Both the position numbers and the translations under genes were made by a program. Under the pieces are notes generated by a model. The model was given only the letters and a program-made list of their open reading frames with translations, had not been told where the DNA came from and ran no database searches. A stretch of 64,000 nt of DNA from Acutalibacteraceae bacterium (GTDB lineage: Bacteria; Bacillota; Clostridia; Oscillospirales; Acutalibacteraceae). The stretch covers positions 3,190 through 67,189 of the forward strand of contig JAZQMA010000055.1 of assembly GCA_045543035.1 (NCBI GenBank), read 5' to 3'. This document shows positions 16,598 through 32,881 of this stretch, piece after piece. Positions within the stretch are counted from its first letter, which is position 1. Every line of letters begins with the position of its first letter.

Positions 16598-17032
16598 ATG
16601 GATTCAAAAAATTACCAACAACTCGTCCACAATACCACCCCCAAATCCCCTCTTTTAAAGGACTGCATTTTATCCTTTATTTTTGGCGGTTCAATCTGTT
16701 GCTTTGGTCAACTTTTAAAAATGCTTTACACCAATGCAGGTTTAACCGAGGACGAGGTGAAATTAGCCGTGCCCGTAACACTTATAGTTATCACAGCAAT
16801 CCTCACAGCTACCGGTACTTTCGCAAAAATCGCAAAACATGCAGGTGCAGGCACCGCTGTTCCCATTACAGGCTTTGCAAACTCCGTTGTTTCCCCTGCA
16901 GTTGAATTCAGCGCAGAAGGTAAAATTCTCGGTACAGGTGCAAAAATGTTCAACCTTGCAGGTCCTGTTATTGTCTATGGTTGCTCTGCTGCCAGCCTTT
17001 ACGGGCTTATTTATTATCTGTTTTTAAAATAA
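16598..17032 (+). CDS. spoVAC: Stage V sporulation protein AC
   Basis: 144-aa polytopic protein with GAGTAVPITGFANSVVSPAVEF and KMFNLAGPVIVYG, typical of SpoVAC. Confidence 0.85.
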   Translation: MDSKNYQQLVHNTTPKSPLLKDCILSFIFGGSICCFGQLLKMLYTNAGLTEDEVKLAVPVTLIVITAILTATGTFAKIAKHAGAGTAVPITGFANSVVSPAVEFSAEGKILGTGAKMFNLAGPVIVYGCSAASLYGLIYYLFLK

Positions 17033-17100
17033 TATTATTGATTTAATTATCTGTATGTGATATTATCACTACAGATAATTAAATTTTTAACAAAGAGGTA

Positions 17101-18123
17101 ATGACTATGAGCAGAAATGCAATCTATGGCGCAGGTTCACTAGGTACTGTTCTTGGCGCATACATCACCAAAAACGGCGGTCAGGTTGACCTTATTAACA
17201 GAAATAAAGCTCACGTTGAAATTCTCAACACAAAGGGTGCAAAAATCATCGGCACTGTTGATATGACAGTTCCTGTTAAGGCTATCACCCCTGCTGAAAT
17301 GGAAGGCAAATATGATGTTATTGTTCTTCTCACAAAGCAGTTACATAACAAAGAAGTTGTTACAATGCTCAAGGATTTCCTCAGCGAAAGCGGTGTTATC
17401 GTAACCCTTCAGAATGGTATTCCCGAGCCGGGTATTGCAGAAATCGTTGGCGCAAATCATACAATGGGTTGCGCAGTCGAATGGGGCGCAGCACTTATTG
17501 AGCCCGGTGTTTGCGAGCTTACAAGTGCTCCCGACAGTCTTTCTTTCCATATGGGCAAATTAGACGGCATCACAGAGAACCAGGTTAAAATGGTTAAAGA
17601 TTTGCTTGAGCTTATGTGCCCCGTTCACGAGGAAGAAAATCTTATGGGCGCTCGTTGGTCAAAGCTTCTTATTAATGCAACCTTCTCAGGTCTTGGTACA
17701 GTTGTTGGTGGTGTTTTCGGTGATGTTTCCGAAGATAAGGAGGCTCAGAAGGTTGCCATCCGTTGCATGAAGGAATGTATTGATGTTGGCCACGCAACAG
17801 GAACAGAATTCGCTCCTGTTCAGGGCAAAAACATTGTTGGTCTTTTCTATTATAAAGGCGCTCTCAAGCGCGCTCTCGGCTGCATGCTTCTTCCCATCGC
17901 TATGAAAAAGCACCGCCTTATTGAACCCTCAATGCTTCAGGACCTTAAGAAAGGTAAGCCCTGCGAGGTTGATGCAATCAATGGTGTTGTTTGCGAGTTC
18001 GGAAGAAAACACAACATCCCAACTCCCATTAACGACAAAATCGTTGAAATCATAAAGAAAATTCAGAACGGCGAATTAAAAGCCGAAAAAGCAAACATCA
18101 GACTTTTTGATGATATTCTTTAA
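17101..18123 (+). CDS. 2-dehydropantoate 2-reductase family (PanE/ApbA) oxidoreductase
   Basis: GAGSLG Rossmann motif, LQNG, WSKLLINA and SMLQDLKKGKPCEVDAINGVV signatures. Confidence 0.75.
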   Translation: MTMSRNAIYGAGSLGTVLGAYITKNGGQVDLINRNKAHVEILNTKGAKIIGTVDMTVPVKAITPAEMEGKYDVIVLLTKQLHNKEVVTMLKDFLSESGVIVTLQNGIPEPGIAEIVGANHTMGCAVEWGAALIEPGVCELTSAPDSLSFHMGKLDGITENQVKMVKDLLELMCPVHEEENLMGARWSKLLINATFSGLGTVVGGVFGDVSEDKEAQKVAIRCMKECIDVGHATGTEFAPVQGKNIVGLFYYKGALKRALGCMLLPIAMKKHRLIEPSMLQDLKKGKPCEVDAINGVVCEFGRKHNIPTPINDKIVEIIKKIQNGELKAEKANIRLFDDIL

Positions 18124-18136
18124 TATTTAAAGCTCT

Positions 18137-18184
18137 GCACCTCATTAAAATGCTTCGGCATTTTAATGAGGTGCGTATTTTTTT
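18137..18184 (+). terminator. Rho-independent terminator
   Basis: GCACCTCATTAAAATGC-TTCG-GCATTTTAATGAGGTGC followed by a T-run. Confidence 0.85.
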
Positions 18185-18229
18185 ACCATTCTTGCAAACA
18201 ATATAATAAAACTTTTAAGGAACGATTTT

Positions 18230-18973
18230 ATGCCACAGAGAATGGGAAAATATACAATCGAATTAGAGAACACTCCGTCAATTATAGGCTATGCAGCAGT
18301 GGTTGGAGAAAAAGAGGCGCAGGGACCTCTCGGTCAATGCTTTGATAAAACCTGTAAGGATGCCTTTTTCGGAGAAAAAACCTTTGAAAAAGCAGAAACG
18401 AAAATGCAGAAAATGACAATCGAAACCGCAGTCAAGAAATCAGGTCTTTCCAAAAATGATATTCAGATTGCCTTTGCTGGTGACCTTTTAAACCAATGCA
18501 TCGGTTCATCTTTTGATATGAGGGATTTAGGCTTTTGCTTTGCAGGGCTTTACGGTGCTTGCTCAACTATGGCTCTGTCCCTAGCCCTTGCAGGAATTTT
18601 TGTTGATTGCGGTGCAGCAAAAACTGCCCTTGCCGCCGCATCATCCCATTTCTGCTCAGCAGAAAGGCAATACCGCTTTCCCCTTGAATATGGCGGTCAG
18701 CGTAGCCCCGCAAGTCAATGGACAGTTACAGGCGCAGGTGCAGCAGTAGTTGCCGAAAAGAAAGAAAACGCGCCCACTATTGAGAAGGTTATAATCGGCT
18801 CCGTCAGGGATTTGGGTATAACCGATGTTAATAATATGGGAGCTGCTATGGCTCCTGTTAGTGTTAAACTAAGACCATACAAAACAAAAAGGTATGGTCT
18901 TTCTACACAAACAATTTTAAGAAAGGATAACACACTAAACAACAATGAATGTAACGTTTGCACAATCGCATAA
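18230..18973 (+). pseudogene. spoVAD: spoVAD, 5' part only; homology ends near 18857
   Basis: Residues 1-209 match the SpoVAD thiolase-like fold (FAGDLLNQ, LYGACST, ERQYRFPLEYGGQ, DLGITDVNNMGAAMAP). The tail VSVKLRPYKTKRY... is unrelated and AT-rich, and about 130 expected C-terminal residues are missing. Confidence 0.8.
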
Positions 18974-19071
18974 ATGTTACATTCATTGTTGTTAATATTA
19001 GCTCACAATTATATCAACTAAAAATTTATCAATAATATTAATGAAATACATCGTTTAAGTATACTTGTTAT

Positions 19072-21537
19072 TTAAATACTGTTATTTTCAATATTATTTT
19101 TGGCTTTTTCAAGCACCTGAATTCGATTAAGATGTATAGTTTCCCAAAAATTCTCATCAAAAATTTTATTATTAACAGCTACATTTTCAAAACATTGTCG
19201 TATTTTTAGATATAAATTCTTTGCTTCTCCATAATTACTATTCTGCAATGAATTCAAGCAATCAATTAAATATTCTATTATTTCTCCCAATGTATCACAT
19301 GAATACCAGTATGGATTTACGCGTGGCTGTTGCCTTGCTTCATAAACCTGTTTCATTTCAATAAAAAAATCATAAAACTTATTGGTTTTTTCACTGATCA
19401 TACTTCCTTCATGGTCCGCAAAAGCACCGGAAACTTGTTCGAAAGCCGACATTACAATTAAGATTCGTTGGGCTAGAAAATTCGACTTAGGATCTTTTTT
19501 CATATCTAAAAGATCAAAATATTTAAATTCACTTTCAAATACAGATATATATTCCTTGATGGATAGACTTAGAGTAAACACCATCACCATATCTGCATAA
19601 CACTCAGAAAAGAAAAAAGCAATATCATTAATAATATTTGTTAAAGTTGTTTCACTATTATTCCCGGTAATAAGTTTTGTTTTCTGAAAATTAATAGTTT
19701 CAAAGAGTTGGTGTTTTTGTAAACTTGTTAGTTCTTTGTGTTCTTTTAGATAAGCAGCTATAATTTTACCTAGTATTGAAGGGTCTTCTAACACGGTTTC
19801 TAACGATGCTTTTACATCGACTTTAAGATATCTCAAATATCTAGAGTCGATATCATTAATCCCAAGACCAAAGTATATATGACTGGAAAACTTATCATAT
19901 ACAGTATACTCAGGAATATACAAGTTAATTGCTGTTTCAATAGCCACACAATTAATAAAATATTTTATTCTTTCTTCTCTGCACCTATGCTTATCAGTTA
20001 ACAAATGTGCTACCTCATGAAGAATTGATGTCATTATTAAAAATGGATCACTTATTGAGGTGTAAGGCAACTCAATATATAGAATACTATCACATGGTGG
20101 ATTATCATCAGGAATTATAGGCATTGTTTTTATTCGACGACACAACTTTGGAGTTGTTAAACAAGCAAATCCATCTGTTTCCTCAGGCCGATTCGGAGAA
20201 TATTCTATGTTTTGTAAATATGTAGAGACCAAATTTGAATATGCATTATAATACTCTATCATTCGAACACTAAAGTTATACGTTTTAGGAAGATAGCCTA
20301 TTTTTTCCGTAAAAAATGGTTCTGATTCAACTATTTGTTCATTTAGTTCCTTACATGCTCGCAAATATTGTAAAATTGATTTTTTGAATGCAAATAAATC
20401 TTGATTGTGTTGCTTGCTAATATGCAACCACTTACTTAACACAGAAATACTATCAATCAATAAATAACAAATATCGTCTTGTATATCACTATAGCTCATA
20501 TTTACCATTGCGTTTACCAATTCTAACAACGGCTTTTTCCATCCATAATCATAATCCTGTATATCGTTTGCAAGTCCATCAATAATTTCATTGCATACGT
20601 TAGACAGTTCCTTAGACTTTGGCATTGTTTTATTAGTAACAATATACTCTTCTGCGATTATTATCACAAAATTTTCAAATGTTAAATATATATCATCACT
20701 TGGATTATAATATTTTTTTAAAAACTGCAATAAATTTTTTGTAGTAACATTTTTAAGACTAATTAAGAAATGCCTATTGCTAGAATTGTAAAACATTTTT
20801 GCGGTTGGAAAAATGTTTTGCAAAGTTTTATAAACCTTTTTGTTATAAAGTTTTTTTGTTGGTATGCCCATTATATTTACTGTGGAAATTAACTCTCCAT
20901 TTGATGATACTTCGAGTAAACTTTCATTCTCAATATATTCTTTAGAATTATATATTGTCAATATATGGTTAACCCAACTCGCATTTTGCAAATAATTACT
21001 TAAAAATGTTAGTGTTTTTATTTCAGATGTTTTTACTAATAAAACAAAATCACATAGATCTACTGAATAATAAATTAGATATTTAATGCTAAGTAATTTT
21101 TGTTTTCTTAAGATTTCTCTAATTTTTTTGTTAATGGAACCCACGGTATGAAATTTTATCTCTGTATTTGTAAAAAGCAAAAAAACGCCCAAAAAAAGAG
21201 AATCATCGTTCCAAAAATTCTTTAATAAAATATCATCTTTGGTTGTTTTGTTCTCTCTAACAATATACATTGAATTATAAGAAAAATCACCATTTAATGT
21301 TTCTGATAATTTTTTGCTGTCTATTTCTATTATGGAAGGAACGGAAAATCCATCAGTACTCCTAACTTTATATGGCAAAGTGAAATCATAATGCTCAAAA
21401 GAAATATACGGCAGCAAGGGGTCGTCCGAAACATGTTTTATGTCATCTATAACACTTAATGGTTTTTTTACATTCTGGGTTGTTTTGCAAAACAAAATAT
21501 TTCTAATATCAAACATCGTTACTATCATCCTCTTCAC
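19072..21537 (-). CDS. Large hypothetical protein with HExxH metallopeptidase-like motif
   Basis: 821 aa. It has SILHEVAHLL, and further downstream FFSECYADMV (IrrE/SprT-like spacing). No P-loop was seen. Its start overlaps the upstream gene by 29 nt. Confidence 0.7.
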   Translation of the reverse strand: MKRMIVTMFDIRNILFCKTTQNVKKPLSVIDDIKHVSDDPLLPYISFEHYDFTLPYKVRSTDGFSVPSIIEIDSKKLSETLNGDFSYNSMYIVRENKTTKDDILLKNFWNDDSLFLGVFLLFTNTEIKFHTVGSINKKIREILRKQKLLSIKYLIYYSVDLCDFVLLVKTSEIKTLTFLSNYLQNASWVNHILTIYNSKEYIENESLLEVSSNGELISTVNIMGIPTKKLYNKKVYKTLQNIFPTAKMFYNSSNRHFLISLKNVTTKNLLQFLKKYYNPSDDIYLTFENFVIIIAEEYIVTNKTMPKSKELSNVCNEIIDGLANDIQDYDYGWKKPLLELVNAMVNMSYSDIQDDICYLLIDSISVLSKWLHISKQHNQDLFAFKKSILQYLRACKELNEQIVESEPFFTEKIGYLPKTYNFSVRMIEYYNAYSNLVSTYLQNIEYSPNRPEETDGFACLTTPKLCRRIKTMPIIPDDNPPCDSILYIELPYTSISDPFLIMTSILHEVAHLLTDKHRCREERIKYFINCVAIETAINLYIPEYTVYDKFSSHIYFGLGINDIDSRYLRYLKVDVKASLETVLEDPSILGKIIAAYLKEHKELTSLQKHQLFETINFQKTKLITGNNSETTLTNIINDIAFFFSECYADMVMVFTLSLSIKEYISVFESEFKYFDLLDMKKDPKSNFLAQRILIVMSAFEQVSGAFADHEGSMISEKTNKFYDFFIEMKQVYEARQQPRVNPYWYSCDTLGEIIEYLIDCLNSLQNSNYGEAKNLYLKIRQCFENVAVNNKIFDENFWETIHLNRIQVLEKAKNNIENNSI

Positions 21538-22918
21538 TTATACAATAGTATTTTAATGTATCATTAATAATTGTATTATCAAAAACTTTAAAGTTATAGT
21601 TTATTATATTATTGCAATAGGTTTCCAAAACTAAGTACACTTCTTCCTCCACCTCATACAGTTTAATCATAGTCTTCTTTATTTCATCTGTAAAGTCCTT
21701 GATTGTTGATTCGTTTTCAGATTTATATTCTGATACAAAAGATAGCAATAATATTGAAATATAGCTAATCTCGTATTCTTTTTCTTTTTCTTCTTCTTTA
21801 GTGAAAGGTCTACTACTCCGACAAACACATATATGCTTTATTTTTATTGCAAAAGCATAAAACAAAGACATGATCTCTTTGGTATAACTTGATGTAGATT
21901 CCGAATTTGAAGAAGAATACTGTATTTTTTCTATTACTGATTTTGCTGTCCAACAGTCCGTTCTTTGTGATAAAAAAACTACTAAGGCAACTAAAATATT
22001 CTTCTTCAAAGTGTCTTTGTCTTTTAAATTTTCGGTGCTCTCTTGTTTTTCTGTTTCAACAAACAACTCCTCAATTAAGTTTACCACACTTTGAACAAAA
22101 AAACCTCTATTTTTTTCTATATATTCTTTATTCGTATTAAACGAGTTGTTAAATACTTCTAACAAAAAATGAATAGGATTGAAATCCGAATTATTATTAA
22201 AAGCAATTACTGTTTTTATTACCGAATAACTTAATGGGGTCCAGTTGTCGCTTTCGCCTGACGACAAACTATTAAACAAATAATAACCTAAGTTATATAT
22301 AATGGTATAATGTAGTTCTTTTTGTAAAACGGTTTTTGGGTAACCACTCTTTCTATGACTTAATTTTATATCGATGTATTGTTTTACTTGTTTTTTTACA
22401 TTTGCAATGTTCGAAAAGAAACAAAACAGTATATAAGTATGTAACAAGATGCCAGATAATAATATCACTATTTGACAAATTGCTAAAAACAATTTATTAG
22501 CACTTTGTGCATAAACCAAAACAAAACAAGATATTAAACATAAAACAAATAACATTTTGTGTTTTCTTCCAAATTTTGCTTCTATTATGTATTCAGTTAA
22601 AATATTAAACGATCTTTTTCCAAAAAACAAAGAAAAACTTGATAAAATGATATTCATGTACGAAATCGCCGATAGTTTTTCTAGAAACTTGGTAGCTTCA
22701 AACCCATGAGCATCTAAATTTGTTAGTATTTCGCCATATAATGCACTTGCTTTTTCAATCACATTAACATTCAAATCAAATAAGTCATATACTAGATACA
22801 TCAAACTAATAATGAAGAAAGTAATAGCAGGGATAATTATAATGCGTCTAAGATGATATTTAACTAGTTCCATAACATTAAATAATACTTTTTTTATTTT
22901 TTTCAACATACATCCCAT
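21509..22918 (-). CDS. Hypothetical membrane protein (about 4 N-terminal TM helices plus a cytoplasmic domain)
   Basis: 469 aa with hydrophobic segments in the first ~170 residues. It overlaps, and is probably co-translated with, the 821-aa gene. Confidence 0.65.
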   Translation of the reverse strand: MGCMLKKIKKVLFNVMELVKYHLRRIIIIPAITFFIISLMYLVYDLFDLNVNVIEKASALYGEILTNLDAHGFEATKFLEKLSAISYMNIILSSFSLFFGKRSFNILTEYIIEAKFGRKHKMLFVLCLISCFVLVYAQSANKLFLAICQIVILLSGILLHTYILFCFFSNIANVKKQVKQYIDIKLSHRKSGYPKTVLQKELHYTIIYNLGYYLFNSLSSGESDNWTPLSYSVIKTVIAFNNNSDFNPIHFLLEVFNNSFNTNKEYIEKNRGFFVQSVVNLIEELFVETEKQESTENLKDKDTLKKNILVALVVFLSQRTDCWTAKSVIEKIQYSSSNSESTSSYTKEIMSLFYAFAIKIKHICVCRSSRPFTKEEEKEKEYEISYISILLLSFVSEYKSENESTIKDFTDEIKKTMIKLYEVEEEVYLVLETYCNNIINYNFKVFDNTIINDTLKYYCISEEDDSNDV

Positions 22919-23636
22919 CCTAAAACAAAACGGATTTCCAACAATCTTTATTTGCTGAAAATCCGAATATGATAAAATATACTAAACTCTATTTTGTCTT
23001 TTATACTCTTGATAAGACAAAGCTCTATGATTCCTAGGACCAATATTTTGCGGAACAATTGCTTTTTCATTATCCTTTATTGCATCAGAATCGTGAACAC
23101 AGGAGCTTGGAATAGAAAGATCTGAACAAAAATTTGCACTACAATTTTTCCTGTTTCTGCTTGCTAAATAACGATTGTTAGCATTAGACAATCTACTCAT
23201 CAACCCACCTCATGTCAAGACATAATAACACCTTGTATATTATATTCAGTTTCCGCAAAAATGTCAAGAGAAAAAACAAAATTAACAAAATATTCATATT
23301 CTTCGTTTTTTCATCTTTTTTAGAAATTGTGTCAAATCTAGTGTTTTCAGCAATAATACTATTTTCAACACAACATTTATTATTAAAAATTTTGTAATTA
23401 ACAATAGTTTTACTATTATTTAATTCTTTGAACACTTATAAAATTGTTAATTCACACCTATTTTTATTTCAACTTTAGCTTTATTAGTGGATTACATACA
23501 ACTTCTTATGCTTTAGATGTGATATAGGATTTCTAAATAATATTTATTGCTTCATATTTTAAATTATCCTTATTATATGCATATTAAGAAACTAACATAA
23601 ATAAAAACTCTATTTTATTAAAAAGTTTTAATGTAT

Positions 23637-23932
23637 CTCCATATATATATGACTAAAAATTCAAAATACTTCACAAAAATTTTCAAAAATATTTAAAATC
23701 GTGAAAATCGACAAAAAACGACACCGCTTTTCGTGCAACTACAACAACACGGTGTTATATATATATCCTTATGAAAGGAGTTGGGGATAAATATGAATCT
23801 CCCGTAAAACCAAACAATAATAAATAGAGGTTGATTTTAATGAATACAAGTAAAAAGCAATCGGCATGTCCCATCATGACGAAAGAGAACTAAACGCTAT
23901 TAAAGGAGTTACCAAATACATTAGTAAAAAGG
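23637..23932. repeat. Degenerate copy of the ICE left-end control region (direct repeat of 30909-31216)
   Basis: CTCCATATATATATGAC...CGTGAAAATC...GAAAGGAGTTGG.GATAAATATGAAT...TTGATTTTAATGAATACA... aligns along its length with the copy at 30909. A ~10-nt deletion frameshifts the first ORF (MNTSKKQSACPIMTKEN*). Confidence 0.85.
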
Positions 23933-24046
23933 TTTATCAAAAATGCAATAATTAATTGTGAAGTTAAATTTTTTAAACACATCTGCTAACTCGGGAGAGC
24001 GAATTAACATATAAACACCCCCAAGCTACAAAACACAATAATATAC

Positions 24047-24120
24047 GGGGCATTAGCTCAGATGGGATGAGCGCTTGACTGGCAGTCAAGAGGTCAGGAG
24101 TTCGATCCCCCTATGCTCCA
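24047..24120 (+). tRNA. tRNA-Ala (anticodon GGC)
   Basis: Hand-folded cloverleaf. The acceptor stem GGGGCAT/ATGCTCC carries the G3:U70 Ala identity pair, the anticodon loop is CTGGCAG and the T-loop is TTCGATC. There is one A-C mismatch in the T stem, and CCA is not fully encoded. Confidence 0.8.
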
Positions 24121-24128
24121 CCGAGGTC

Positions 24129-24175
24129 AAAATATCCGAATTTTGTCATCAGTGGTGACATATTCGGATATTTAA
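24129..24175 (+). terminator. Long hairpin after the tRNA
   Basis: AAATATCCGAAT...TGTCA-TCAGTGG-TGACA...ATTCGGATATTT inverted repeat. Confidence 0.6.
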
Positions 24176-24550
24176 ATTTTATCAGTTGCTTCACTAATTA
24201 GGCTAGTTGTCATCTATACTAATTACTGTAATATTAAAAACACAAAAAAATTGAAACATACAAAATGGTGGAAATTCAGGTTATTACCAAACCCAAGCAT
24301 CTTAGGAATGGTTCGGTTTTTAAAAATACAATAGGTTGTATATACTCCTATTAATTTATTTGAAAGTACTGTAGGCTATAAGATGTTTTTTATGTTGAAA
24401 CGGAGAATATTAAAATTCAGTTACAGGATGTGTCAATTTTAATTAAATGGTTATTATAAATTAATTAAGCATGTTTTTTTTACAAAGTTTGACATTAAAT
24501 ATTTTTTATGGTACATTGTATTAGGCATATATACGTGGGAGAGAAATTTT

Positions 24551-25555
24551 ATGAATAAAGAATCCAGGATAGACAAAATAATGAATACAACATTTTTTAA
24601 AATATTTTGCATTTTAGATAGTTTAATTGGCATTATTTCCGCTTTTTTTACTGAAAACAGTCTAGTGGGGAAAGTTGTGTTTTCCCTTGCAGTGTTCATA
24701 ATGTTTGTTGTTGGGTGTTTTTTAGCATTTCGCTATAAAAAATTTATAGATGTTGATAAAAAAAATATAGAGTTATCTACGGAAATAAGTAGTAAAAATG
24801 CAAAAATAGATTTGTTAGAACAAAATATACACAATGGTGTAAAATACACAAACAATGAGGTTGTTGTCACTTTAGATAAAAGCAAAAAGTTATATCGCTT
24901 TGAATTTATAAAAGAATTCGAGATAATTTCCGAAAATGCACCTAAATGGTATTCTGCACAGTTTTATGCAAATAAAATATTGAAAGATAAAAAAGAGTCG
25001 AAAAAATACTATAGGGATAATGTTATTAAATGGGATGACTTAAAAGTACGAGCTACTGTTTCATATTTATACCCCGGTTCTCCGAAGTTTACTGATCCGA
25101 CAAATTTGGTAATTGATAATATTACTGATGAAAATAATTACATTCCCTTTAATATTCAATACATAACTTTTCGTAACAAAAGAAATTTAGATATAAAGAA
25201 AGGTACTAAAGTAAAATTAAAGTACTGTTATAACGTTCCTGTGCATCTATGGGGTAGTTACTTGAATAGAACTATTAGTTATTTCGGGGAACCTACTATT
25301 GTAAAATTAAAGTACGACCTGGATACAGAGCTTGATATTAAAGTTTCCTCGTTAAGTGGTGTCGGTGGAGAGCCTCTTGTTACTGAAGATTACAGCACAA
25401 ATGTTGATGAAGAAAACCAATATGTAGTTTACACTATAACATTAAAATCACAGCCTTTTGCCAAATATAGAATATGGTGGGATTCTGAAAAATATTTTGA
25501 GAATGACAAAACAACGGAAGATACCGCTGATCATTCGCAACTAACAACTTATTAG
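24551..25555 (+). CDS. Hypothetical 2-TM protein with coiled-coil and beta-rich C-terminal domain
   Basis: 334 aa with two hydrophobic helices in residues ~15-60. The stop lies 14 nt before the start of the radical SAM gene. Confidence 0.65.
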   Translation: MNKESRIDKIMNTTFFKIFCILDSLIGIISAFFTENSLVGKVVFSLAVFIMFVVGCFLAFRYKKFIDVDKKNIELSTEISSKNAKIDLLEQNIHNGVKYTNNEVVVTLDKSKKLYRFEFIKEFEIISENAPKWYSAQFYANKILKDKKESKKYYRDNVIKWDDLKVRATVSYLYPGSPKFTDPTNLVIDNITDENNYIPFNIQYITFRNKRNLDIKKGTKVKLKYCYNVPVHLWGSYLNRTISYFGEPTIVKLKYDLDTELDIKVSSLSGVGGEPLVTEDYSTNVDEENQYVVYTITLKSQPFAKYRIWWDSEKYFENDKTTEDTADHSQLTTY

Positions 25556-25569
25556 GAGAATTTCACGAA

Positions 25570-26388
25570 ATGAAATATAGTGAAAACAGCAGGGCTTTCG
25601 CCTCTTTTTCAGGAAAATGTCCATATGAATGTTCGCACTGTTATACGTTTTCTAAAGAATTTGTTAGCAAAGGTAAAGCCGATGTTAATAGTATCATTAA
25701 CGAACTCAATTCTAAAAAGAATTTTAACATTGTTTACATTTCTGGTTACAAAGAGAATTTTGTCGATCCCGCAAAAGGAATGTCTTTATTGGAATCTGTT
25801 TATGACAATTTCTGTTGTGATATACTAATTACCACTAGAGCTGTATTTGATGTAAATAATACAAATAGGTTATTTGCGTTAAACGCTCGAATGCAAAGTA
25901 ATGGTAATCACTTGTATTTTTGTGTCTCAATACCAGCATATGAATCATATCGGCTGTTGGAACCCAACCCAATAATCCCTTCCCCTTCCCAACGATTACA
26001 ATTTTTAAAAAATATATATTTGGGTGGAATCAATGCAATACTTACTATTAGGCCTTTGTGCCCAAATACTTTTGTACCAATTTCAGAAAGTATTAGACTA
26101 ATAAATGAGATTGATGGATATTGTTCAGCCGTTATCTCAAGTGGTATTGTTGTTGATAATTTTATATTGACCAAATTAAATGAGTTTCCTGATGTCTTTG
26201 ATTATGAAGAAAAGAAACTGATGAATTGCTTAGAAAATGATATTAATGTAAAATATGTTAATGTCAAAAAAGAGTTAGAACAAGTTGAGAACACTTGTAA
26301 AAAATCTGGCATTCCGTTCTTTCAAAATAGTTTACCAGCAATTAATTACATATTTAGTCTAAAGCACATCGAAAATAAGGATACCTAG
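25570..26388 (+). CDS. Radical SAM protein, SplB/COG1533 (DNA-photolyase-like) type
   Basis: CPYECSHCY is a CX3CX2C motif near the N-terminus. ITTRA and SIPAYESYRLLEPNPIIPSPSQRLQFLKN...ILTIRPLCPN resemble the spore-photoproduct-lyase-like family pattern. Confidence 0.7.
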   Translation: MKYSENSRAFASFSGKCPYECSHCYTFSKEFVSKGKADVNSIINELNSKKNFNIVYISGYKENFVDPAKGMSLLESVYDNFCCDILITTRAVFDVNNTNRLFALNARMQSNGNHLYFCVSIPAYESYRLLEPNPIIPSPSQRLQFLKNIYLGGINAILTIRPLCPNTFVPISESIRLINEIDGYCSAVISSGIVVDNFILTKLNEFPDVFDYEEKKLMNCLENDINVKYVNVKKELEQVENTCKKSGIPFFQNSLPAINYIFSLKHIENKDT

Positions 26389-26892
26389 AAAGGCGATTTA
26401 GTTTTTCTAGGTATTCTTATTTTCAAGCAGCAGATAAGCACTCCAGTTTCACCTCACAGGAAAAGGAATAATTTGAAAATGATGCAGCAAAGAAAAAACA
26501 CTACAAAATAAGATTATACAAATACAAAAAAGCAGCTTTGTAATTGCATTACCAGAACACAAGAATGATATAAATTTCTCTATGCCATTGTCATAAAAGC
26601 CTTACTTCGACTTGTTTTGCATGGCGTTATTGTTACAATACAGCGGGATTGTGTCGATAAGAGATGAGTTGATATCGGCATAATGTTGGAAAAGGAACCA
26701 AAAAACATGAAAGATTGTGTAAAAATGAAGAAAAAAACGCCTAAATTGTTGAAAATTGGAAATTCGTGTGTTATTATACTCTTGAAAGAAAGTACAGAAA
26801 AACTACAGAAAATAAGACAAGTTATTATGGATGAAAGTGCTTTGGATAAAAAAGGTGTGGACAAGCCCACAGGGGCAAAAGGGGAAATAAAA

Positions 26893-27492
26893 ATGGCAAA
26901 TATAACAGAAAAATCCCAACAAAATAATTTGTATTTGTTTACTAATCTTGATGGAAAAACATCAGATGACTTAGTTACAAAATTCGAATTAGATAAAATG
27001 ATCCCAGTTAAATTGGATAAAGTATTTGACTATTGCAGCATTGAGGTTTTACCTACCGATTTTAAAACTTATGAAGAGATTCCTGAAATATCTGAAATCG
27101 TTGATAAAAAAGGACTTATTTTGGGTGCTGTTGCAATAAAAAATAAGCAAATTAACATTTTATATAAAAAAGATGACACTCCACATCGTCAAAAATTTAC
27201 TGTTGCTCACGAACTTGCTCATTGTTGTTTGAATGCTGAGAAAATTGCAGTCGATGGACACGTAGCGTTTAGATTAGATGTGGATATTAAAAATGCTGCA
27301 GAAGACGAATATGAAGCTAATGTTTTTGCTGGCGAACTTCTTATACCTAAAAAAACACTTGATTCGCTATATAAAGTTATAAAAAAGCCAAAACTTGAAA
27401 TACTTTCTAAAATATTTGATGTTTCTGAAAATGTAATGAGAGCAAGATTAAAATATTTAAAATTGCCTTTTGAAGACTCAGTAAATGTTTAA
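26893..27492 (+). CDS. ImmA/IrrE-family (COG2856) metallopeptidase
   Basis: FTVAHELAHCCL ... EYEANVFAGELLIP. Start taken at MANITEK, which has a Shine-Dalgarno. The in-frame upstream extension to 26683 contains an AbrB-like KIGNSCVIILLKE segment, so the true start is uncertain. Confidence 0.7.
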   Translation: MANITEKSQQNNLYLFTNLDGKTSDDLVTKFELDKMIPVKLDKVFDYCSIEVLPTDFKTYEEIPEISEIVDKKGLILGAVAIKNKQINILYKKDDTPHRQKFTVAHELAHCCLNAEKIAVDGHVAFRLDVDIKNAAEDEYEANVFAGELLIPKKTLDSLYKVIKKPKLEILSKIFDVSENVMRARLKYLKLPFEDSVNV

Positions 27493-27506
27493 TTTTTAAT
27501 GCGGAA

Positions 27507-28076
27507 GTGATTCAAGTGCCCAATATTAATGATTGGTTTTCTTCACTAGATATTGAAAATGGCGAAGAGCCCGAATCAGTAGATAATGCCCCAGAAGGAA
27601 GTAATTATACATATAAAGATACAGATATTGTTGATTTTTATAAAAAAGTAAATGATGAAAATAAAACGCCAGAAGAAAATATTCGAGACGGACATATAAG
27701 TAATTTGTTAGAATCCTATGTCAATGCATACAAATCCAAGATAACAACTCAAAAGTGTTTTAGATGTATTCTGTTTCTCATATCTATGTTAATCATAGTC
27801 GCATTTGCTTCTGTTTTTGTTAGTTTACTTGTAAACTTTGACTTTTCATCAGATTTAGATACAAGTGAAAGCCTTATTGGCTTAATATCTGTGTGTGTTA
27901 CATTTCTCACTTCAGTTATAGGAATATTAAAAATTATAGTAAAATACTGTTTCCCTGAAAATGATGAAAAATACATAACAGAAATAGTAAAGGCTGTGCA
28001 ACAAAATGACCTTGAAAACAAAAAGGAAAATTTAAAACATAAGTTAGCAATGAAAAATGATACCAAAAAACTGTAA
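27507..28076 (+). CDS. Hypothetical 2-TM protein
   Basis: 189 aa with a GTG start 14 nt after the ImmA stop. It has an acidic N-terminus, two hydrophobic helices, and a terminator hairpin at 28091-28124. Confidence 0.55.
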   Translation: MIQVPNINDWFSSLDIENGEEPESVDNAPEGSNYTYKDTDIVDFYKKVNDENKTPEENIRDGHISNLLESYVNAYKSKITTQKCFRCILFLISMLIIVAFASVFVSLLVNFDFSSDLDTSESLIGLISVCVTFLTSVIGILKIIVKYCFPENDEKYITEIVKAVQQNDLENKKENLKHKLAMKNDTKKL

Positions 28077-28090
28077 TTATAATTTCAAAA

Positions 28091-28124
28091 ACTCCCTTAC
28101 ACAACTATTGTGTAAGGGAGTTTT
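28091..28124 (+). terminator. Rho-independent terminator
   Basis: ACTCCCTTACACA-ACTATT-GTGTAAGGGAGT followed by TTTT. Confidence 0.75.
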
Positions 28125-28482
28125 GTTAAAATTATAATTACGAAAAAACGATAAAATAAAAAAACATTATTCATATTCGTTGAAGGATTTGGATACCATC
28201 AGCATCTGATATAAAGCTAGTAAGAAGGATAACCACCTGTTTTTTCTAGTGCCGAAATTTTATCTTTGTGTGATGATAATATGATCTAAATATTGCACTT
28301 TGTGCCCCAATATATGGAATATAGCTCATTATAAATTCGTCCACAAGATGCAATACTCTTTTGATTAAACTTTGGGTGTTGTATTTTCACATTACTGTAT
28401 ACAAAAACTATAATTTAATGTAATTTCAATGCACTATACGTATCAAATATAAATTATGTTTTGAATTTTTAGTTCAACCTTT

Positions 28483-29571
28483 TTAGTCTTCGATTTTTGA
28501 AAATTCTACATCTTCAACTAAATCATCCGCTGAAAAGTCTGTTCCATTTTTATTTTGTTTTTTGTAAAGATATTGAATATAATAATTACATAATTCTATT
28601 CCATATCGATATATATAATGCTTAAAAACATTATCATCGATGCTATCAAGCATCTTCTTTTCAGCGTTTTTTGATAGTTCTTCAAAATCAAGTTTATCTT
28701 TTTTTGCTTTATCTGCAAGTTTATCTATATCTATGATCTGTTTCTTTTTAGTTGAAATAACAAGTACAGCACGAATAAAGATCTCATTTTGTGTGTAGTA
28801 CTTTAACATAAAACATGCAATTGAACCTTTTAATTTATCATTTGCATCATATTCATCAAGTGTATCTTTTTCATAAAAATGTTCCTCAAAGGCTTTTTGT
28901 TTGCTATTATATAATATGCTCGATTTCTTTTTTTTCAAAAAGTTTTGTAAAGTATCTTCACAAAAATCCGATGTGGTTAATCCTGAAAAACTTTCGGCAT
29001 TCTCCCAATGATGCTCATCTTCTTTTGGAAAATTATATAAGAGTTGTACTTGAAAATCGTCTTTTTCATGAATATGCTTTTTTTCACTGGTCAAAAAAGC
29101 TAAATTTTCTACGAACTGATCAGATATATGTTTTAATTGTGTGCATGGTTGTGTGTAAACATGATCAGCAAGAAGATTACCAGCATAAATATTTGAAATT
29201 TGTTTTAATTGGTTTTCTATCTTATATCTACATATTGTGCTAGTGCTGTTTAAAACGGTGTGAAACAAATCTCGTTGTGCTGTGGTTAATTCTAAAATGC
29301 TTTTGGTATCATCCGTTATTTCGCCATATTTTTCGATTATCGCCAAACAACAATTAATTGTAAAAATGCCAACAGTAGCAATTATTCCCCATGTTGTTAA
29401 TGAAACATCTGATGTTTTAGTATCAACTTCTATTAAATAAAGTTTTTCTCCAAAATATGTTACTATTAAGGAAAACCAAATTCCAGATAGTTTACCAAAA
29501 AGCATGGATACAAGCCAGTGCTTCGAAGTGAAATTTTTAATTTCAGGTATAAATTTTTTAATCGACTTCAT
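28483..29571 (-). CDS. Hypothetical membrane protein (2-3 N-terminal TM helices plus a cytoplasmic domain)
   Basis: 362-aa AT-rich ORF with no recognised motif. Confidence 0.6.
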   Translation of the reverse strand: MKSIKKFIPEIKNFTSKHWLVSMLFGKLSGIWFSLIVTYFGEKLYLIEVDTKTSDVSLTTWGIIATVGIFTINCCLAIIEKYGEITDDTKSILELTTAQRDLFHTVLNSTSTICRYKIENQLKQISNIYAGNLLADHVYTQPCTQLKHISDQFVENLAFLTSEKKHIHEKDDFQVQLLYNFPKEDEHHWENAESFSGLTTSDFCEDTLQNFLKKKKSSILYNSKQKAFEEHFYEKDTLDEYDANDKLKGSIACFMLKYYTQNEIFIRAVLVISTKKKQIIDIDKLADKAKKDKLDFEELSKNAEKKMLDSIDDNVFKHYIYRYGIELCNYYIQYLYKKQNKNGTDFSADDLVEDVEFSKIED

Positions 29572-29755
29572 ATTGTATCTGTACCCTTCTTTTTTTATTG
29601 TTACTCATTCTTTTCCTTTTCTTCCCGTGGCTTTCAATTCCAACGGTCATCAAAATGGATTTCTCTCGTAACTTGATTTTGCCTATATTGTTCAGTTCTT
29701 CTGATATAGCAAATCTATAAATACCAGATGAAATAGTTTCTTGTTTTTGTTTCAT
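29558..29755 (-). CDS. Small basic hypothetical protein
   Basis: 65 aa, ending 14 nt inside the downstream 362-aa gene (coupled arrangement). Lys/Arg-rich tail. Confidence 0.35.
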   Translation of the reverse strand: MKQKQETISSGIYRFAISEELNNIGKIKLREKSILMTVGIESHGKKRKRMSNNKKRRVQIQYEVD

Positions 29756-29894
29756 CCAAACACTCCTATATTATGTTTTCAAAATTATCAGATTGATCAT
29801 GATCTTTAAAGTAAAAAACAATAAATTGTTTTCGTATTCTTTTAAGAAAAGAATTATTATAAAATTAAATGCATAAGAATTTATAATTTGTAAT

Positions 29895-30506
29895 TCATTT
29901 AAAAATGAATGAATTTTCTAAATTCATCGAAATAAAAGGTAAATTAAGTGCATCAAGCTGTTGCATAAAATTGCTGTTATTAAATATTATTGAAATTGTT
30001 TTGTAGTCATTATTGAAAAAAGATTGTTTTAAAGTTTCTTCTTTACACCCTGAACTTAATAGCATTTTCATAAACCAAAAGTTGGATTGAAAACCTACTT
30101 CGTCTGTGTGATTTGTTATTTTATAAGTGAGCCATTCGTTCAAAGTTGCATTTAAACCAAAATAATCATGTCCGTTTTCTTTAAATGCTATACCAATTAC
30201 CCAACAGAACTTAAACTTGTTAATATGTTTAAAATTCCTACTCAATCTATTTATAAATTCTCGTACAACAATATGTTCATTAAATAACGATTCTTTTATA
30301 AAAATATATCCGTTTTTGGTTAAACATTTACTTCGAGTAACATTCAAATCTTTATGTTTGCCTATACATTTTCCATCGGGAATAATGAATACTTTTTTTG
30401 TCATGTTTGGTACTTTACTAAAGTTTTTAACATAAGGCTCATATTGTTCTTTAATTTTTTCGTAATATTTATCATTGATTCTTTTTAATTCTTTTGAATA
30501 ATCCAT
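29895..30506 (-). CDS. Hypothetical protein
   Basis: 203-aa ORF in AT-rich DNA with no recognised motif. Confidence 0.5.
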   Translation of the reverse strand: MDYSKELKRINDKYYEKIKEQYEPYVKNFSKVPNMTKKVFIIPDGKCIGKHKDLNVTRSKCLTKNGYIFIKESLFNEHIVVREFINRLSRNFKHINKFKFCWVIGIAFKENGHDYFGLNATLNEWLTYKITNHTDEVGFQSNFWFMKMLLSSGCKEETLKQSFFNNDYKTISIIFNNSNFMQQLDALNLPFISMNLENSFIFK

Positions 30507-30673
30507 AAAATGCTCCTATAATAATTTGGGGTAATTATTTAAAAAATCGCAGTAACACCATACAAAATATATCAAATATTTTTTTAATACATTTTGAAAC
30601 ATGAATTTTTTTGACTGGGAATTATGCAATTTTTTATAATTTGGTGTTAGTGTATACAGTTTGCCTAAAGTAT

Positions 30674-30898: not shown

Positions 30899-30908
30899 CT
30901 TAAATGCA

Positions 30909-31415: not shown

Positions 31416-31430
31416 AAGAGGTGAAATTTT

Positions 31431-31721: not shown

Positions 31722-31767
31722 AAATGAGGTGTATAAAAACTAAATAAATAGGATGGTCGGATGCTAT

Positions 31768-32877: not shown

Positions 32878-32881
32878 TAGT

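What the first reader, a model, noticed from the sequence alone, without database searches (positions are those of the whole stretch)
16598..18973. spoVA operon is broken twice: a PanE-type gene sits between spoVAC and spoVAD, and spoVAD is cut at ~18857 by more than 45 kb of mobile DNA
SpoVAD homology is clean through ...DLGITDVNNMGAAMAP (codon ~209, nt ~18856). It then switches to unrelated AT-rich sequence, and the expected ~130 C-terminal residues are absent from the rest of the window.

Two tight hairpins sit right after the break: AAGACCATAC...GTATGGTCTT at 18871-18901 and AACAACAATGAATGTAAC...GTTACATTCATTGTTGTT at 18939-18995. Everything from here to 64000 is mobile-element-like.

Interruption of sporulation genes by excisable elements is known (skin in sigK, SPbeta in spsM). 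Those genes are mother-cell genes, where excision does not cost the germ line. spoVA is classically forespore-expressed, so a developmentally excised element here would be lost from the spore. That makes this either a genuine knockout of DPA-channel function or a different regulatory solution.

A 340-aa PanE/ApbA reductase with its own terminator is also wedged between spoVAC and spoVAD.
Basis: partly seen in the sequence, partly recalled or inferred. Interest (0 to 1): 0.8.

Follow-up and report, generated by a model that had tools for sequence, protein, structure and literature searches.

The report
Conjugative element inserted in spoVAD
A spore-maturation gene (spoVAD, part of the dipicolinic-acid channel) is cut in two by a large conjugative element, at a site that a whole family of serine-recombinase elements uses in many gut Clostridia; no paper I could search describes this, and it matters because the gene is thought to work in the germ-line compartment of the spore.

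Summary
spoVAC (16598-17032), a PanE-type reductase (17101-18123) with a strong terminator (18136-18175), and the first 209 codons of spoVAD (18230-18856) are all there. Homology stops at 18857 and no 3' half lies in the window.

The DNA beyond is an integrative conjugative element (ICE), not a phage. It carries a MobL relaxase, a VirB4-like ATPase, TrbL, Tad-like pilus genes and methyltransferases.

"Broken twice" is wrong. Close relatives with an intact 337-aa spoVAD have the same spoVAC-panE-spoVAD order.

The break is a recurrent attachment site:
- 20 of the 120 nearest SpoVAD protein clusters are cut after the same codon.
- 52 of 80 species-level loci holding relatives of one large serine recombinase (always paired with a DUF6870 gene) sit beside a spoVAD half.
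- All 52 3' halves that do not run off a contig end are uninterrupted reading frames.
- One identical recombinase lies next to spoVAD in at least five host backgrounds.

Rebuilt attP has inverted half-sites (TTATGGT/ACCATAA), a CC crossover, and forms TTGACA-N17-TAnAAT only in the excised circle.

Most likely this is a reversible, site-specific disruption. Whether excision is timed to sporulation is open. It is a new variant of the skin/SPbeta kind. The recombinase and the right end of this particular ICE were not seen.

The parts
16598..17032 (+). spoVAC (144 aa), intact
   Evidence: PF03862, E 3e-37. Same position as in the intact relatives L001-L003.
17101..18123 (+). panE/apbA-type 2-dehydropantoate reductase homologue (340 aa). 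It lies between spoVAC and spoVAD as an ancestral gene order of this species group.
   Evidence: PF02558 plus PF08546. TIGR00745 at 176 bits, above its cut-off. Present at the same place next to an intact spoVAD in L001-L003.
18136..18175 (+). Intrinsic terminator after panE. spoVAD therefore needs its own promoter in 18176-18229.
   Evidence: 18-bp stem, 4-nt loop, T run. The stretch ACCATTCTTGCAAACAATATA just downstream of the hairpin is identical in the window and L001.
18230..18855 (+). 5' part of spoVAD (codons 1-209, ...NNMGAAMAP), host-derived up to the crossover
   Evidence: Pfam SpoVAD profile positions 1-207 of 329. tblastn with P0006 matches residues 1-213 at 92% identity. blastn to L001 ends at 18857.
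18830..18880 (+). attL. Host B arm AATAATATGGGAGCTGCTATGGCT, crossover dinucleotide CC (18854-18855), element P' arm TGTTAGTGTTAAACTAAGACCATAC.
   Evidence: Junction comparison across 19 attL and 45 attR sites. The third base of the Pro codon follows the host in attR, which places the exchange on CC. The P' arm is identical in L006/L007 and matches 21 of 24 bases in the complete element of L042.
18871..18901 (+). Hairpin 1. The distal half-site of the P' arm (AGACCATA) pairs with an inverted copy 11 nt downstream. It is conserved in all left ends of the 'VKLRPY' class.
   Evidence: The same GGTATGGTCTTTCTACACAAA occurs in L006/L007 and is encoded in the tails of P0026, P0027, P0031, P0041, P0092, P0110 and others.
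18938..18993 (+). Hairpin 2, an 18-bp perfect stem with a 20-nt loop. It lies between the end of the fused spoVAD' ORF and the convergent 821-aa gene and is probably a bidirectional terminator.
   Evidence: The matching tails of P0061/P0110 (..QNECNIYTSA) show it is conserved in related elements.
18856..64000 (.). Left 45 kb of an integrative conjugative element. The right end, with the expected DUF6870 gene, serine recombinase and attR, lies beyond the window.
   Evidence: L011 matches 50549-64000 at 95-97.5% and runs on for 6.7 kb (coupling protein, HTH, tyrosine recombinase) without reaching an end.
19072..31000 (.). AT-rich (27% GC) cargo block. ORFs of 821 aa and 469 aa on the minus strand have no family match; an M78/CapP-like peptidase lies at 26683-27492.
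31753..37725 (+). Leading-region-type genes: two DNA methyltransferases, LPD28, DUF3849, YodL/DUF3846
39558..42332 (+). Tad-like pilus genes (RcpC/CpaB, T2SSE ATPase)
45781..50238 (+). 1485-aa surface protein with Listeria-Bacteroides repeats
51976..56687 (+). Mating-pore genes: TrbL, VirB4-like ATPase (53767-55641), NlpC/P60-like hydrolase
   Evidence: The PHROG 'terminase' hit falls on this ATPase.
59327..62611 (+). MobL relaxase, DUF3800, DUF3991-Toprim

Best explanation
Shown:
- Position 18854-18857 is the left junction (attL) of an integrative conjugative element longer than 45 kb, probably longer than 52 kb.
- It sits inside codons 208-210 of spoVAD, at a site used again and again in Oscillospirales.
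- Elements at this site range from 9-14 kb cassettes and mobilizable elements to ICEs.
- They share a two-gene module: a DUF6870 gene followed by a large serine recombinase of the TndX/TnpX type (Resolvase, Recombinase, Zn ribbon and DUF4368 domains).
- They share an attP with inverted half-sites TTATGGT ... ACCATAA and a CC crossover.

Inferred:
- The ICE of this window entered by recombinase-catalysed attP x attB exchange. Its recombinase lies at the unseen right end, directly upstream of an intact 128-codon 3' spoVAD half.
- While the element is integrated, spoVAD is off. The 5' ORF ends 38 codons after the junction, and the 3' half is separated from the promoter by the whole element.
- Precise excision, which the ICE needs anyway for transfer, rejoins the frame exactly.
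- The element therefore acts as a reversible switch on the dipicolinic-acid channel.

My commitment for this ICE is that disruption is passive. I expect no dedicated sporulation programme. Carriers would make SpoVAD-less, DPA-poor spores unless the element happens to excise, a cost that Clostridia appear able to bear.

I put about 0.5 on this, about 0.3 on sporulation-coupled excision in either compartment, and the rest on other outcomes.
For: Junction and truncation.

ICE gene set.

Recurrent site: 20 of 120 nearest SpoVAD clusters are cut after NNMGAAMAP. More than 100 stand-alone 131-136-aa 3' halves exist.

Recombinase link:
- DUF6870 plus recombinase lie directly upstream of the 3' half in L010 and L015.
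- 52 of 80 species-level recombinase loci hold a spoVAD half on the same strand. Only 7 with full flanks hold none.
- DUF6870 is adjacent to the recombinase in about 70 loci.
- Complete elements of 9.1, 11.8 and 13.6 kb are seen in L042, L031 and L039.

att sites and CC core.

For passive disruption:
- An identical recombinase (P0315) sits next to spoVAD in at least five different host flanks, plus one secondary site. That points to recent horizontal spread of a simple site-specific element.
- The recombinase has a near-consensus promoter of its own in L042 and L048.
- In the window a conserved hairpin follows attL and the next genes are on the opposite strand. Read-through from spoVAD has nothing to drive.
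- C. difficile spoVAC mutants make stable, germinating, heat-sensitive spores (PMC4959285).
Against: - The recombinase, DUF6870 gene, attR and 3' half of this particular ICE were not seen. The host genome is not on record, and the related contig L011 ends before the right end. Assignment to the family rests on the P' arm only.
- All 52 3' halves that do not run off a contig end, and all complete 5' halves, are uninterrupted ORFs. The split allele is also common, at 17% of clusters. Both are as expected if carriers still use the gene.
- Every serine-recombinase element in a sporulation gene tested so far is excised during sporulation (PMC4191935, PMC5595907, PMC5025042).
- In some relatives (L082, L072) tnpV and the recombinase gene follow the 5' half with no promoter- or terminator-like site between. 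That would couple them to spoVAD transcription.
Confidence: 0.55

Rival explanations
1. Sporulation-coupled, reversible excision in the forespore. Transcription from the spoVAD promoter, or a sporulation-controlled directionality factor such as DUF6870 or TnpV, triggers excision in the forespore. spoVAD is rebuilt and expressed. The non-replicating circle stays in the spore. At outgrowth the promoter formed at the attP joint, or the recombinase's own promoter, drives reintegration. The element would then be kept in the germ line without costing DPA uptake.
For: - attP joins TTGACA (P arm) and TAnAAT (P' arm) at 17-nt spacing in every class, and gives a perfect TTGACA-N17-TATAAT in L071/72/76/77/82 and in the one genuine joint found in a metagenome contig, L110.
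- TnpV is the first gene after attL in 10 loci.
- In L082 tnpV and the recombinase follow the 5' half with no promoter- or terminator-like site between.
- Tn4451 is a precedent. Its circular form creates the promoter for TnpX (Lyras and Rood 2000, title seen), and TnpX both excises and integrates without a directionality factor (PMC5704250).
- Both gene halves are intact in all loci and the split is common.
- Reversible excision without loss of the element is known for the Listeria comK prophage (PMC5025042).
Against: - There is no direct evidence of timing.
- In the window's class the joint promoter would read into a hairpin and then into genes on the other strand.
- The recombinase has a strong promoter of its own in L042 and L048.
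- No convincing sporulation-sigma motif was found upstream of DUF6870.
- TTGACA is also the mirror image of the TGTyAA half-site motif, so the promoter likeness may partly be a by-product of recombinase binding sites.
- 13 of 14 hits of the general attP pattern were ordinary promoters.
Confidence: 0.25
2. Mother-cell excision as in skin or SPbeta. In this clade spoVAD would be transcribed in the mother cell, the element would be excised only there, and the spore genome would keep it.
For: - In the window and L001, spoVAD sits behind a terminator with its own upstream sequence GTATTTT-N13-CAAACAAT.
- L048, L078 and L076 have (T/A/G)(C/A)ATA..-N12/13-CAAA(C/A)AAT.
- This spacing and -10 fit the mother-cell type (ATA -35, CATAxxxT -10; PMC3789822) at least as well as the sigma-G type.
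- It would fit the rule that intervening elements sit in terminal-cell genes.
Against: - SpoVA proteins act in the forespore inner membrane, and the operon is sigma-G-dependent in B. subtilis and C. difficile.
- L077 has a perfect sigma-G-type GAATG-N17-CATACTA.
- The spoVAC upstream regions look forespore-like.
- My sigma-E pattern was loosened after seeing the window, so only the L048 match is independent (about p = 0.02 by my rough estimate).
Confidence: 0.07
3. Dead gene. The insertion is old, this copy is a decaying remnant, and either a second spoVAD does the work or the lineage no longer makes DPA-loaded spores.
For: - The 3' half was not seen for this genome.
- No spoVAE follows spoVAD in the closest intact relatives.
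- The host genome is not on record, so a second copy cannot be excluded.
Against: - The 5' half is 92% identical to intact relatives over 213 residues without a stop or frameshift.
- spoVAC next to it is intact.
- No SpoVAD-like sequence lies elsewhere in the window.
- In 52 related loci the 3' half is an uninterrupted ORF.
Confidence: 0.05
4. Split protein. The two halves are made separately and assemble into a working SpoVAD, so no excision is needed.
For: - In every class the TTG of the P-arm TTGACA (or an ATG in the 'MAPAA' class) is in frame five codons before the junction. Gene callers therefore predict 131-136-aa 3' proteins.
- The break lies at a strongly conserved loop motif, G(A/S)AMAP|AAA, residues 207/208 of PDB 3LMA.
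Against: - No Shine-Dalgarno sequence precedes the TTG.
- The frame match follows from the fixed 15-nt geometry of the att site.
- A terminator-like hairpin lies between the recombinase gene and attR in L010, so the 3' half lacks an obvious promoter.
- The 5' product carries 7-48 foreign residues that differ between classes.
Confidence: 0.03

Closest known systems
skin element in sigK (B. subtilis SpoIVCA; C. difficile CD1231 plus directionality factor CD1234)
   Same: - Mobile-element-derived DNA splits the coding sequence of a sporulation gene.
- A large serine recombinase is encoded at one end.
- Precise excision restores the frame.
- A small accessory gene sits next to a constitutively expressed recombinase in the C. 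difficile case.
   Different: - sigK is a mother-cell gene, and excision is confined to the terminal cell.
- Here the target is spoVAD, sigma-G-dependent in the organisms studied.
- The element is a complete-looking ICE, and timing of excision is unknown.
SPbeta prophage in spsM (SprA/SprB) and vfbin, vrin, gin elements in spoVFB, spoVR, gerE
   Same: - A functional mobile element, or for gin a non-phage element, sits in a sporulation gene.
- A serine recombinase works with a separate directionality factor.
- att sites of about 50 bp have inverted repeats around a short core.
   Different: - All of those targets are mother-cell genes.
- Those elements are phages or non-conjugative islands in Bacilli.
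- Here ICEs and mobilizable elements in Oscillospirales share one site across many species.
- The candidate accessory genes are DUF6870 and TnpV, which have no described function.
Tn4451/Tn4453 (TnpX, TnpV) and Tn5397 (TndX) of Clostridia
   Same: - The recombinase has the same domain set including DUF4368, and is 35.6% identical to TndX over 89% of its length.
- TnpV genes (PF14198) are present in many relatives.
- A Mob relaxase is present in the 12-kb class.
- A consensus promoter is formed only at the joint of the circular form.
   Different: - Tn4451 inserts at many sites with a GA core (PMC5704250). These elements use one conserved site in spoVAD with a CC core, with one secondary site seen.
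- In Tn4451 the joint promoter drives tnpX. Here it would drive tnpV or, in the window's class, a hairpin.
Listeria comK prophage phi10403S/A118 (active lysogeny)
   Same: A serine-integrase element sits in a gene needed only in a special state. Excision restores the gene in a cell that is not terminal, and the element is kept.
   Different: That case is a phage in a competence gene and its regulation has been shown experimentally. Here everything about timing is inference.
spoVA2mob operon on Tn1546-like elements, and the spoVA-carrying islands of gut Firmicutes in ImmeDB
   Same: These also link mobile elements to the SpoVA channel (PMC6907783).
   Different: Those elements carry extra spoVA genes as cargo. 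This one carries none and interrupts the resident gene.

Membership tests
Sporulation-gene intervening elements (skin / SPbeta / vfbin / vrin / gin) | Foreign DNA interrupts the coding sequence of a sporulation gene | tested here: met
   spoVAD is cut after codon 209, and relatives are 337 aa.
Sporulation-gene intervening elements (skin / SPbeta / vfbin / vrin / gin) | The element encodes a large serine recombinase that acts on its ends | tested here: inconclusive
   Not in the window. It is present next to the 3' half or the 5' half in 52 related loci. The link to this ICE rests on the P' arm sequence only.
Sporulation-gene intervening elements (skin / SPbeta / vfbin / vrin / gin) | Precise excision rebuilds an intact reading frame | tested here: met
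   In silico only. attL and attR share CC within CCTG, and joining the B and B' arms gives ...AAMAP|AAAQTI... exactly as in intact genes.
Sporulation-gene intervening elements (skin / SPbeta / vfbin / vrin / gin) | The target gene is expressed in the terminal mother cell | tested here: inconclusive
   Literature places spoVA under sigma-G in the forespore. Promoter-like sequences in this clade are ambiguous.
Sporulation-gene intervening elements (skin / SPbeta / vfbin / vrin / gin) | Excision is developmentally timed | not testable with these tools
   This needs DNA from vegetative cells, sporangia and spores.
Integrative conjugative element | Relaxase, VirB4-type ATPase and mating-pore genes | tested here: met
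   MobL, P-loop_TraG/AAA_10 ATPase, TrbL, NlpC/P60 and T2SSE.
Integrative conjugative element | Type IV coupling protein | tested here: inconclusive
   Not within the window. It is present just past the window's end in the 95-97.5% identical L011.
Integrative conjugative element | Integrase and two defined ends | tested here: inconclusive
   Only attL is in the window. The right end was not reached.
Tn4451/Tn5397-type serine-recombinase transposons | TnpX/TndX-like recombinase with a DUF4368 tail | tested here: met
   Met for the related elements. Not seen for this ICE.
Tn4451/Tn5397-type serine-recombinase transposons | Low target specificity with a GA core | tested here: not met
   One conserved site in spoVAD with a CC core accounts for 52 of 59 loci with usable flanks.
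Tn4451/Tn5397-type serine-recombinase transposons | Promoter formed at the joint of the circular form | tested here: met
   By sequence only: TTGACA-N17-TAnAAT in reconstructed attP and in the joint of L110. Activity was not tested.
Prophage | Capsid, portal, terminase and tail genes | tested here: not met
   The only PHROG 'terminase' hit falls on the VirB4-like ATPase. There was no megablast match to 50,697 phage records.

The most novel reading that the evidence does not exclude
A large family of serine-recombinase ICEs and mobilizable elements of gut Oscillospirales lives inside the forespore gene spoVAD and leaves it on cue. spoVAD transcription, or a sporulation-controlled DUF6870 or TnpV factor, would trigger excision in the forespore. 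The gene would be rebuilt and the circle would ride in the dormant spore. A promoter that exists only at the attP joint would then drive reintegration at outgrowth.

This would be the first programmed DNA rearrangement in the germ-line compartment of an endospore former. It would overturn the rule that such elements are confined to mother-cell genes.
Probability: 0.2. Interest if true: 0.9.

Novelty: new variant of a known kind. Interest (0 to 1): 0.68.

Why it matters
Every described element that splits a sporulation gene sits in a mother-cell gene. That arrangement explains how the element survives in the spore genome.

Here the same type of recombinase element occupies spoVAD, which in the organisms studied is made in the forespore. 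This is common, not a one-off:
- About one in six of the nearest SpoVAD clusters is split at this site.
- 52 species-level genomes carry a related recombinase next to a spoVAD half.
- One identical recombinase was indexed in more than 1,200 blocks of the sequence collection.

There are two possible consequences, and both are testable:
- These conjugative elements switch off DPA loading, and so change spore heat resistance, in many gut anaerobes. That would make spore quality depend on element carriage.
- They have a germ-line-compatible excision and reintegration cycle.

The site also offers a ready pair of att sequences and a recombinase family specific for a conserved gene of uncultured Clostridia.

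Tried and rejected
- **Prophage reading.** The PHROG search gave methyltransferases, primase and one weak 'terminase' hit. Pfam shows that hit is a VirB4-like ATPase next to TrbL and MobL. Megablast of 39001-64000 against phages found nothing. Rejected.
- **panE as a second break.** Rejected by synteny with intact relatives.
- **Reaching the right end.**
  - Look-ups of window proteins found no source contig.
  - The MobL look-up gave L011, which runs 6.7 kb past the window without an end.
  - L011 shares nothing with the recombinase-bearing loci.
  - The recombinase search listed no protein from L011's contig.
- **Excised circles.**
  - A pattern specific for the window's attP class gave 0 hits in JGI metagenome contigs.
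  - A general pattern gave 14 hits, of which 13 are ordinary sigma-70 promoters and one (L110) is a genuine joint of another class.
- **Sporulation-sigma motifs.**
  - Upstream of DUF6870 I found only a conserved T(T/G)(A/G)CCAA(C/T)AATAA of unknown meaning.
  - Upstream of spoVAD and spoVAC the matches are ambiguous.
- **Defence systems in the AT-rich cargo.** PADLOC hit only an M78/CapP-like peptidase.
- **Rfam on 16000-19200.** Nothing near the gathering scores.
- **Literature.** Searches for spoVAD with prophage, integrase or conjugative; spoVA with attB and serine recombinase; intervening element with sporulation and serine recombinase; and DUF6870 alone found no description of spoVAD as an integration site. 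The library lacks most subscription journals.
Full report
**1. Observation**

The host part of the window ends with hydF-hydG-hydE and a TM1266-like gene on the minus strand. On the plus strand come spoVAC (16598-17032; PF03862, E 3e-37) and a PanE/ApbA reductase gene (17101-18123; two Pfam domains, TIGR00745 above its cut-off). A strong terminator follows at 18136-18175, and then an ORF at 18230-18973.

That ORF matches the SpoVAD profile only over positions 1-207 of 329. An intact 337-aa relative (P0006) aligns with residues 1-213 at 18230-18868 and with nothing else in the 64 kb.

Nucleotide alignment with three intact loci stops after ...GCTCCTG at 18857. There the relatives continue CGGCGGCACAG and the window continues TTAGTGTTAAACTAAGACC. 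GC drops from about 0.40 to 0.27-0.29.

The stretch 18850-19010 folds at -49.6 kcal/mol, z = -8.2.

**2. What lies beyond the break**

The DNA from 18856 to 64000 is an integrative conjugative element, not a prophage. It holds:
- an AT-rich cargo block without family matches (19072-31000);
- two DNA methyltransferases, LPD28, DUF3849 and YodL/DUF3846;
- Tad-like pilus genes and a 1485-aa repeat surface protein;
- TrbL, a VirB4-like ATPase, an NlpC/P60-like hydrolase, a MobL relaxase and DUF3991-Toprim.

The one PHROG 'terminase' hit falls on the VirB4-like ATPase. No phage record matches.

A contig from another assembly (L011) is 95-97.5% identical to 50549-64000. It continues for 6.7 kb with the coupling protein, an HTH gene and a tyrosine recombinase, without reaching an end. 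If this ICE matches L011 there, it is longer than about 52 kb. No recombinase, DUF6870 or TnpV gene lies in the window.

**3. panE is not a break**

The closest relatives with an intact spoVAD (L001-L003) have the same order: hydF-hydG-hydE, TM1266-like gene, then spoVAC-panE-spoVAD.

A slightly more distant species has spoVAC and spoVAD adjacent (L004). Another has a GT8 gene on the other strand between them (L006). The panE gene and its terminator are therefore an inherited arrangement. It only means that spoVAD needs a promoter of its own in 18176-18229.

**4. The break is a recurrent attachment site**

A search with the 209-residue 5' part returned 120 nearest clusters (67-94% identity). 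Of these, 97 carry both halves of the protein and 20 end in foreign sequence directly after NNMGAAMAP. The foreign tails fall into a few classes (V[SN]VKLRPY.. as in the window, ADGTITPQ.., VDVKIEP).

A search with the missing 128 residues returned more than 100 stand-alone proteins of 131-136 aa that start MTFTPAAAQTI, MTLAPAAAETI or MAPAAARTI.

In L010 and L015 such a 3' half is preceded by an 84-aa DUF6870 gene and a 568-573-aa large serine recombinase on the same strand. Downstream lies the same host flank as in the intact relatives.

**5. The recombinase family**

I scanned one genome per species with the L010 recombinase. This gave 80 loci at 41-100% identity, in MAGs named Acutalibacteraceae, Oscillospiraceae, Ruminococcus, 'Eubacterium sp.' and Clostridia.
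- 52 loci hold a spoVAD half on the same strand as the recombinase: 38 the 3' half, 11 the 5' half, 3 both.
- 21 loci have a flank cut by a contig end.
- Only 7 loci with about 10 kb on both sides hold none.

All 52 3' halves that do not run off a contig end are uninterrupted ORFs of 120-140 codons. All 5' halves not cut by a contig end are single full-length matches. DUF6870 lies directly upstream of the recombinase in about 70 loci.

Three complete elements were seen:
- L042 (9.1 kb): DUF6870, recombinase, and SLH/DUF4430/ECF-transporter cargo, all co-oriented with spoVAD and followed by spoVAEb.
- L031 (11.8 kb): a mobilizable element with TnpV, an S51 peptidase, MobC/NikA, a MobA relaxase, DUF6870, the recombinase, and AAA_14, RecQ-like and DprA-like genes.
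- L039 (13.6 kb).

The recombinase has Resolvase, Recombinase, Zn-ribbon and DUF4368 domains. It is 35.6% identical to TndX of Tn5397.

One 560-aa member (P0315) is indexed as an identical protein in more than 1,200 blocks of the collection. It lies 157 nt upstream of a spoVAD 3' half in 7 of 8 distinct places, in at least five different host flanks. The eighth place is a secondary site in a permease gene.

**6. att sites**

The element arm of attR is nearly invariant: TTTATGG(T/A)nnnnnC**TTGACA**nnnnCnCC.

The element arm of attL reads (T/G)G(T/C)nnnnG(T/C)**TA(A/T)A(A/C)T**(A/T)AGACCATAA.

Joined, they give an attP of about 52 bp with inverted half-sites TTATGGT and ACCATAA and inner TGTCAA/TGTyAA motifs. 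The centre of symmetry falls on the CC of the proline codon.

In the P0315 junctions, the base after CC follows the host's codon usage in attR. This places the exchange on CC, window 18854-18855.

The window's P' arm is identical to that of L006/L007. It matches 21 of 24 bases of the P' arm in the complete element of L042, whose P arm is nearly the same as that of the L010 class. This is the only link between the window's ICE and the recombinase family. It is an inference.

**7. A promoter that exists only in the circle**

In every class, TTGACA from the P arm and TAnAAT from the P' arm come to lie 17 nt apart in attP.
- The window's class gives TTGACA-N17-TAAACT with TG one base upstream.
- Five other loci give a perfect TTGACA-N17-TATAAT.

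A scan of JGI metagenome contigs with a general attP pattern returned 14 hits. Thirteen are ordinary promoters, which shows how promoter-like the site is. One is a genuine joint (L110), followed 39 nt later by a TnpV-like ORF.

This mirrors Tn4451, whose circular form creates the promoter for TnpX (Lyras and Rood 2000, title seen). TnpX both excises and integrates without a directionality factor (PMC5704250).

There is a caveat. TTGACA is also the mirror image of the half-site motif, so part of the likeness may come from recombinase binding.

**8. How it most likely works**

Shown:
- a precise, in-frame, site-specific insertion of a conjugative element in spoVAD;
- a conserved recombinase module at this site in many species;
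- att sites whose recombination would rebuild the gene exactly.

Inferred:
- The 5' ORF ends 38 codons after the junction.
- The 3' half and any downstream spoVAE are cut off from the promoter.
- The gene is therefore off while the element is integrated and restored on excision.

Whether excision is timed to sporulation is the open point.

Evidence for a passive switch:
- The elements are spreading horizontally.
- The recombinase has a near-consensus promoter of its own in L042 and L048.
- In the window, a conserved hairpin follows attL and the next genes are on the other strand.
- C. difficile spoVAC mutants still form stable, germinating spores that are only more heat-sensitive (PMC4959285).

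Evidence for programmed excision:
- All tested precedents are programmed.
- The split allele is common and both halves stay intact.
- In L082- and L072-type elements, tnpV and the recombinase follow the 5' half with no promoter- or terminator-like site. spoVAD transcription would read into them.

I put about 0.5 on passive reversible disruption for this ICE, 0.25 on forespore excision with carry-over and reintegration, 0.07 on mother-cell excision, and small values on a dead gene or a working split protein.

**9. The forespore premise**

spoVA is sigma-G-dependent in C. difficile and B. subtilis (PMC3789822). I could not confirm this for the clade in the window.
- Upstream of the window's spoVAD, the sequence GTATTTT-N13-CAAACAAT fits the mother-cell type spacing at least as well as the sigma-G type. 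L048, L078 and L076 have similar sequences.
- L077 has a perfect sigma-G-type GAATG-N17-CATACTA.
- Upstream of spoVAC, the window and L005 share G(A/C)ATA-N14-GAnAAAAATA, which looks forespore-like.

These are weak pattern matches. My sigma-E pattern was loosened after I had seen the window.

**10. Comparison with the known, and novelty**

The arrangement works like skin, SPbeta, vfbin, vrin and gin: a serine-recombinase element inside a sporulation gene with an exact rejoining site. Its recombinase, TnpV genes and joint promoter place it near Tn4451 and Tn5397.

It differs in four ways:
- The target is a gene of the forespore regulon in the organisms studied.
- The elements are ICEs and mobilizable elements rather than phage remnants.
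- The site is highly specific, with a CC core, unlike the GA-core promiscuity of Tn4451.
- The site is shared across many species.

Searches of the held literature found no description of spoVAD as an integration site, and nothing on DUF6870. The review-type statements I read say that intervening elements sit in mother-cell genes. I rate it a new variant of a known kind.

**11. Limits**

- The right end of this ICE, its recombinase and the 3' half of this genome's spoVAD were not seen.
- The host genome is not in the collections I could query.
- A second spoVAD copy elsewhere in the genome cannot be excluded.
- All statements on promoters, terminators and timing are sequence inferences.

Noticed in passing
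window 16176-16365: Heptamer arrays in inverted orientation lie between the TM1266-like gene and spoVAC. They are AAAATGC x4.7 (16176-16208) and CATTCCG x4.6 (16334-16365), and they flank an AT-rich stretch with further 7-nt periodicity.
   Followed up: no
window 16505-16578: Nested inverted repeats (ATGTAGGGTACGCATTTATGCGTACC ... GGAACGGATAAATCCGTTCCCTACAT) lie directly upstream of the spoVAC ribosome-binding site. No Rfam family reaches threshold.
   Followed up: partly
window 19072-31000: A 27% GC block sits at the left end of the ICE. Its ORFs of 821 aa (contains HEVAH) and 469 aa have no Pfam, PHROG or PADLOC match, and only an M78/CapP-like peptidase (26683-27492) is recognisable. Other elements at the same site carry defence genes in this position (L006: OLD-TOPRIM plus UvrD, and SIR2).
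   Followed up: partly
L001 7015-8722; L031 17019-17387; L042 18904-19257; L096 12251-12619: No spoVAE gene follows spoVAD in the closest intact relatives of the window, where a GH125 gene lies on the other strand. More distant hosts have spoVAEb directly after spoVAD.
   Followed up: no
many loci, 25-35 nt upstream of the DUF6870 start (e.g. L077 9680-9700, L048 9620-9640): A conserved motif T(T/G)(A/G)CCAA(C/T)AATAA precedes the DUF6870 gene across recombinase classes. Its function is unknown.
   Followed up: no
L101 11840-11900: The P0315-type ICE is inserted in a BPD_transp_1 permease gene instead of spoVAD (junction TTCCCC|GGCTACTTTGG). This is a secondary site for the same recombinase.
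   Followed up: partly
window 18176-18229 and L048 8040-8100: The same 11-mer TGCAAACAATA lies 25-45 nt upstream of the spoVAD start in two distant species. In L048 it is preceded by TCATATT at mother-cell-type spacing.
   Followed up: partly
L009 4448-9747 (IMG/VR contig): Three tandem large serine recombinase genes, preceded by a DUF6870 gene, lie directly upstream of the start of a spoVAD gene at a contig end. This is a different arrangement from the in-gene insertion.
   Followed up: no
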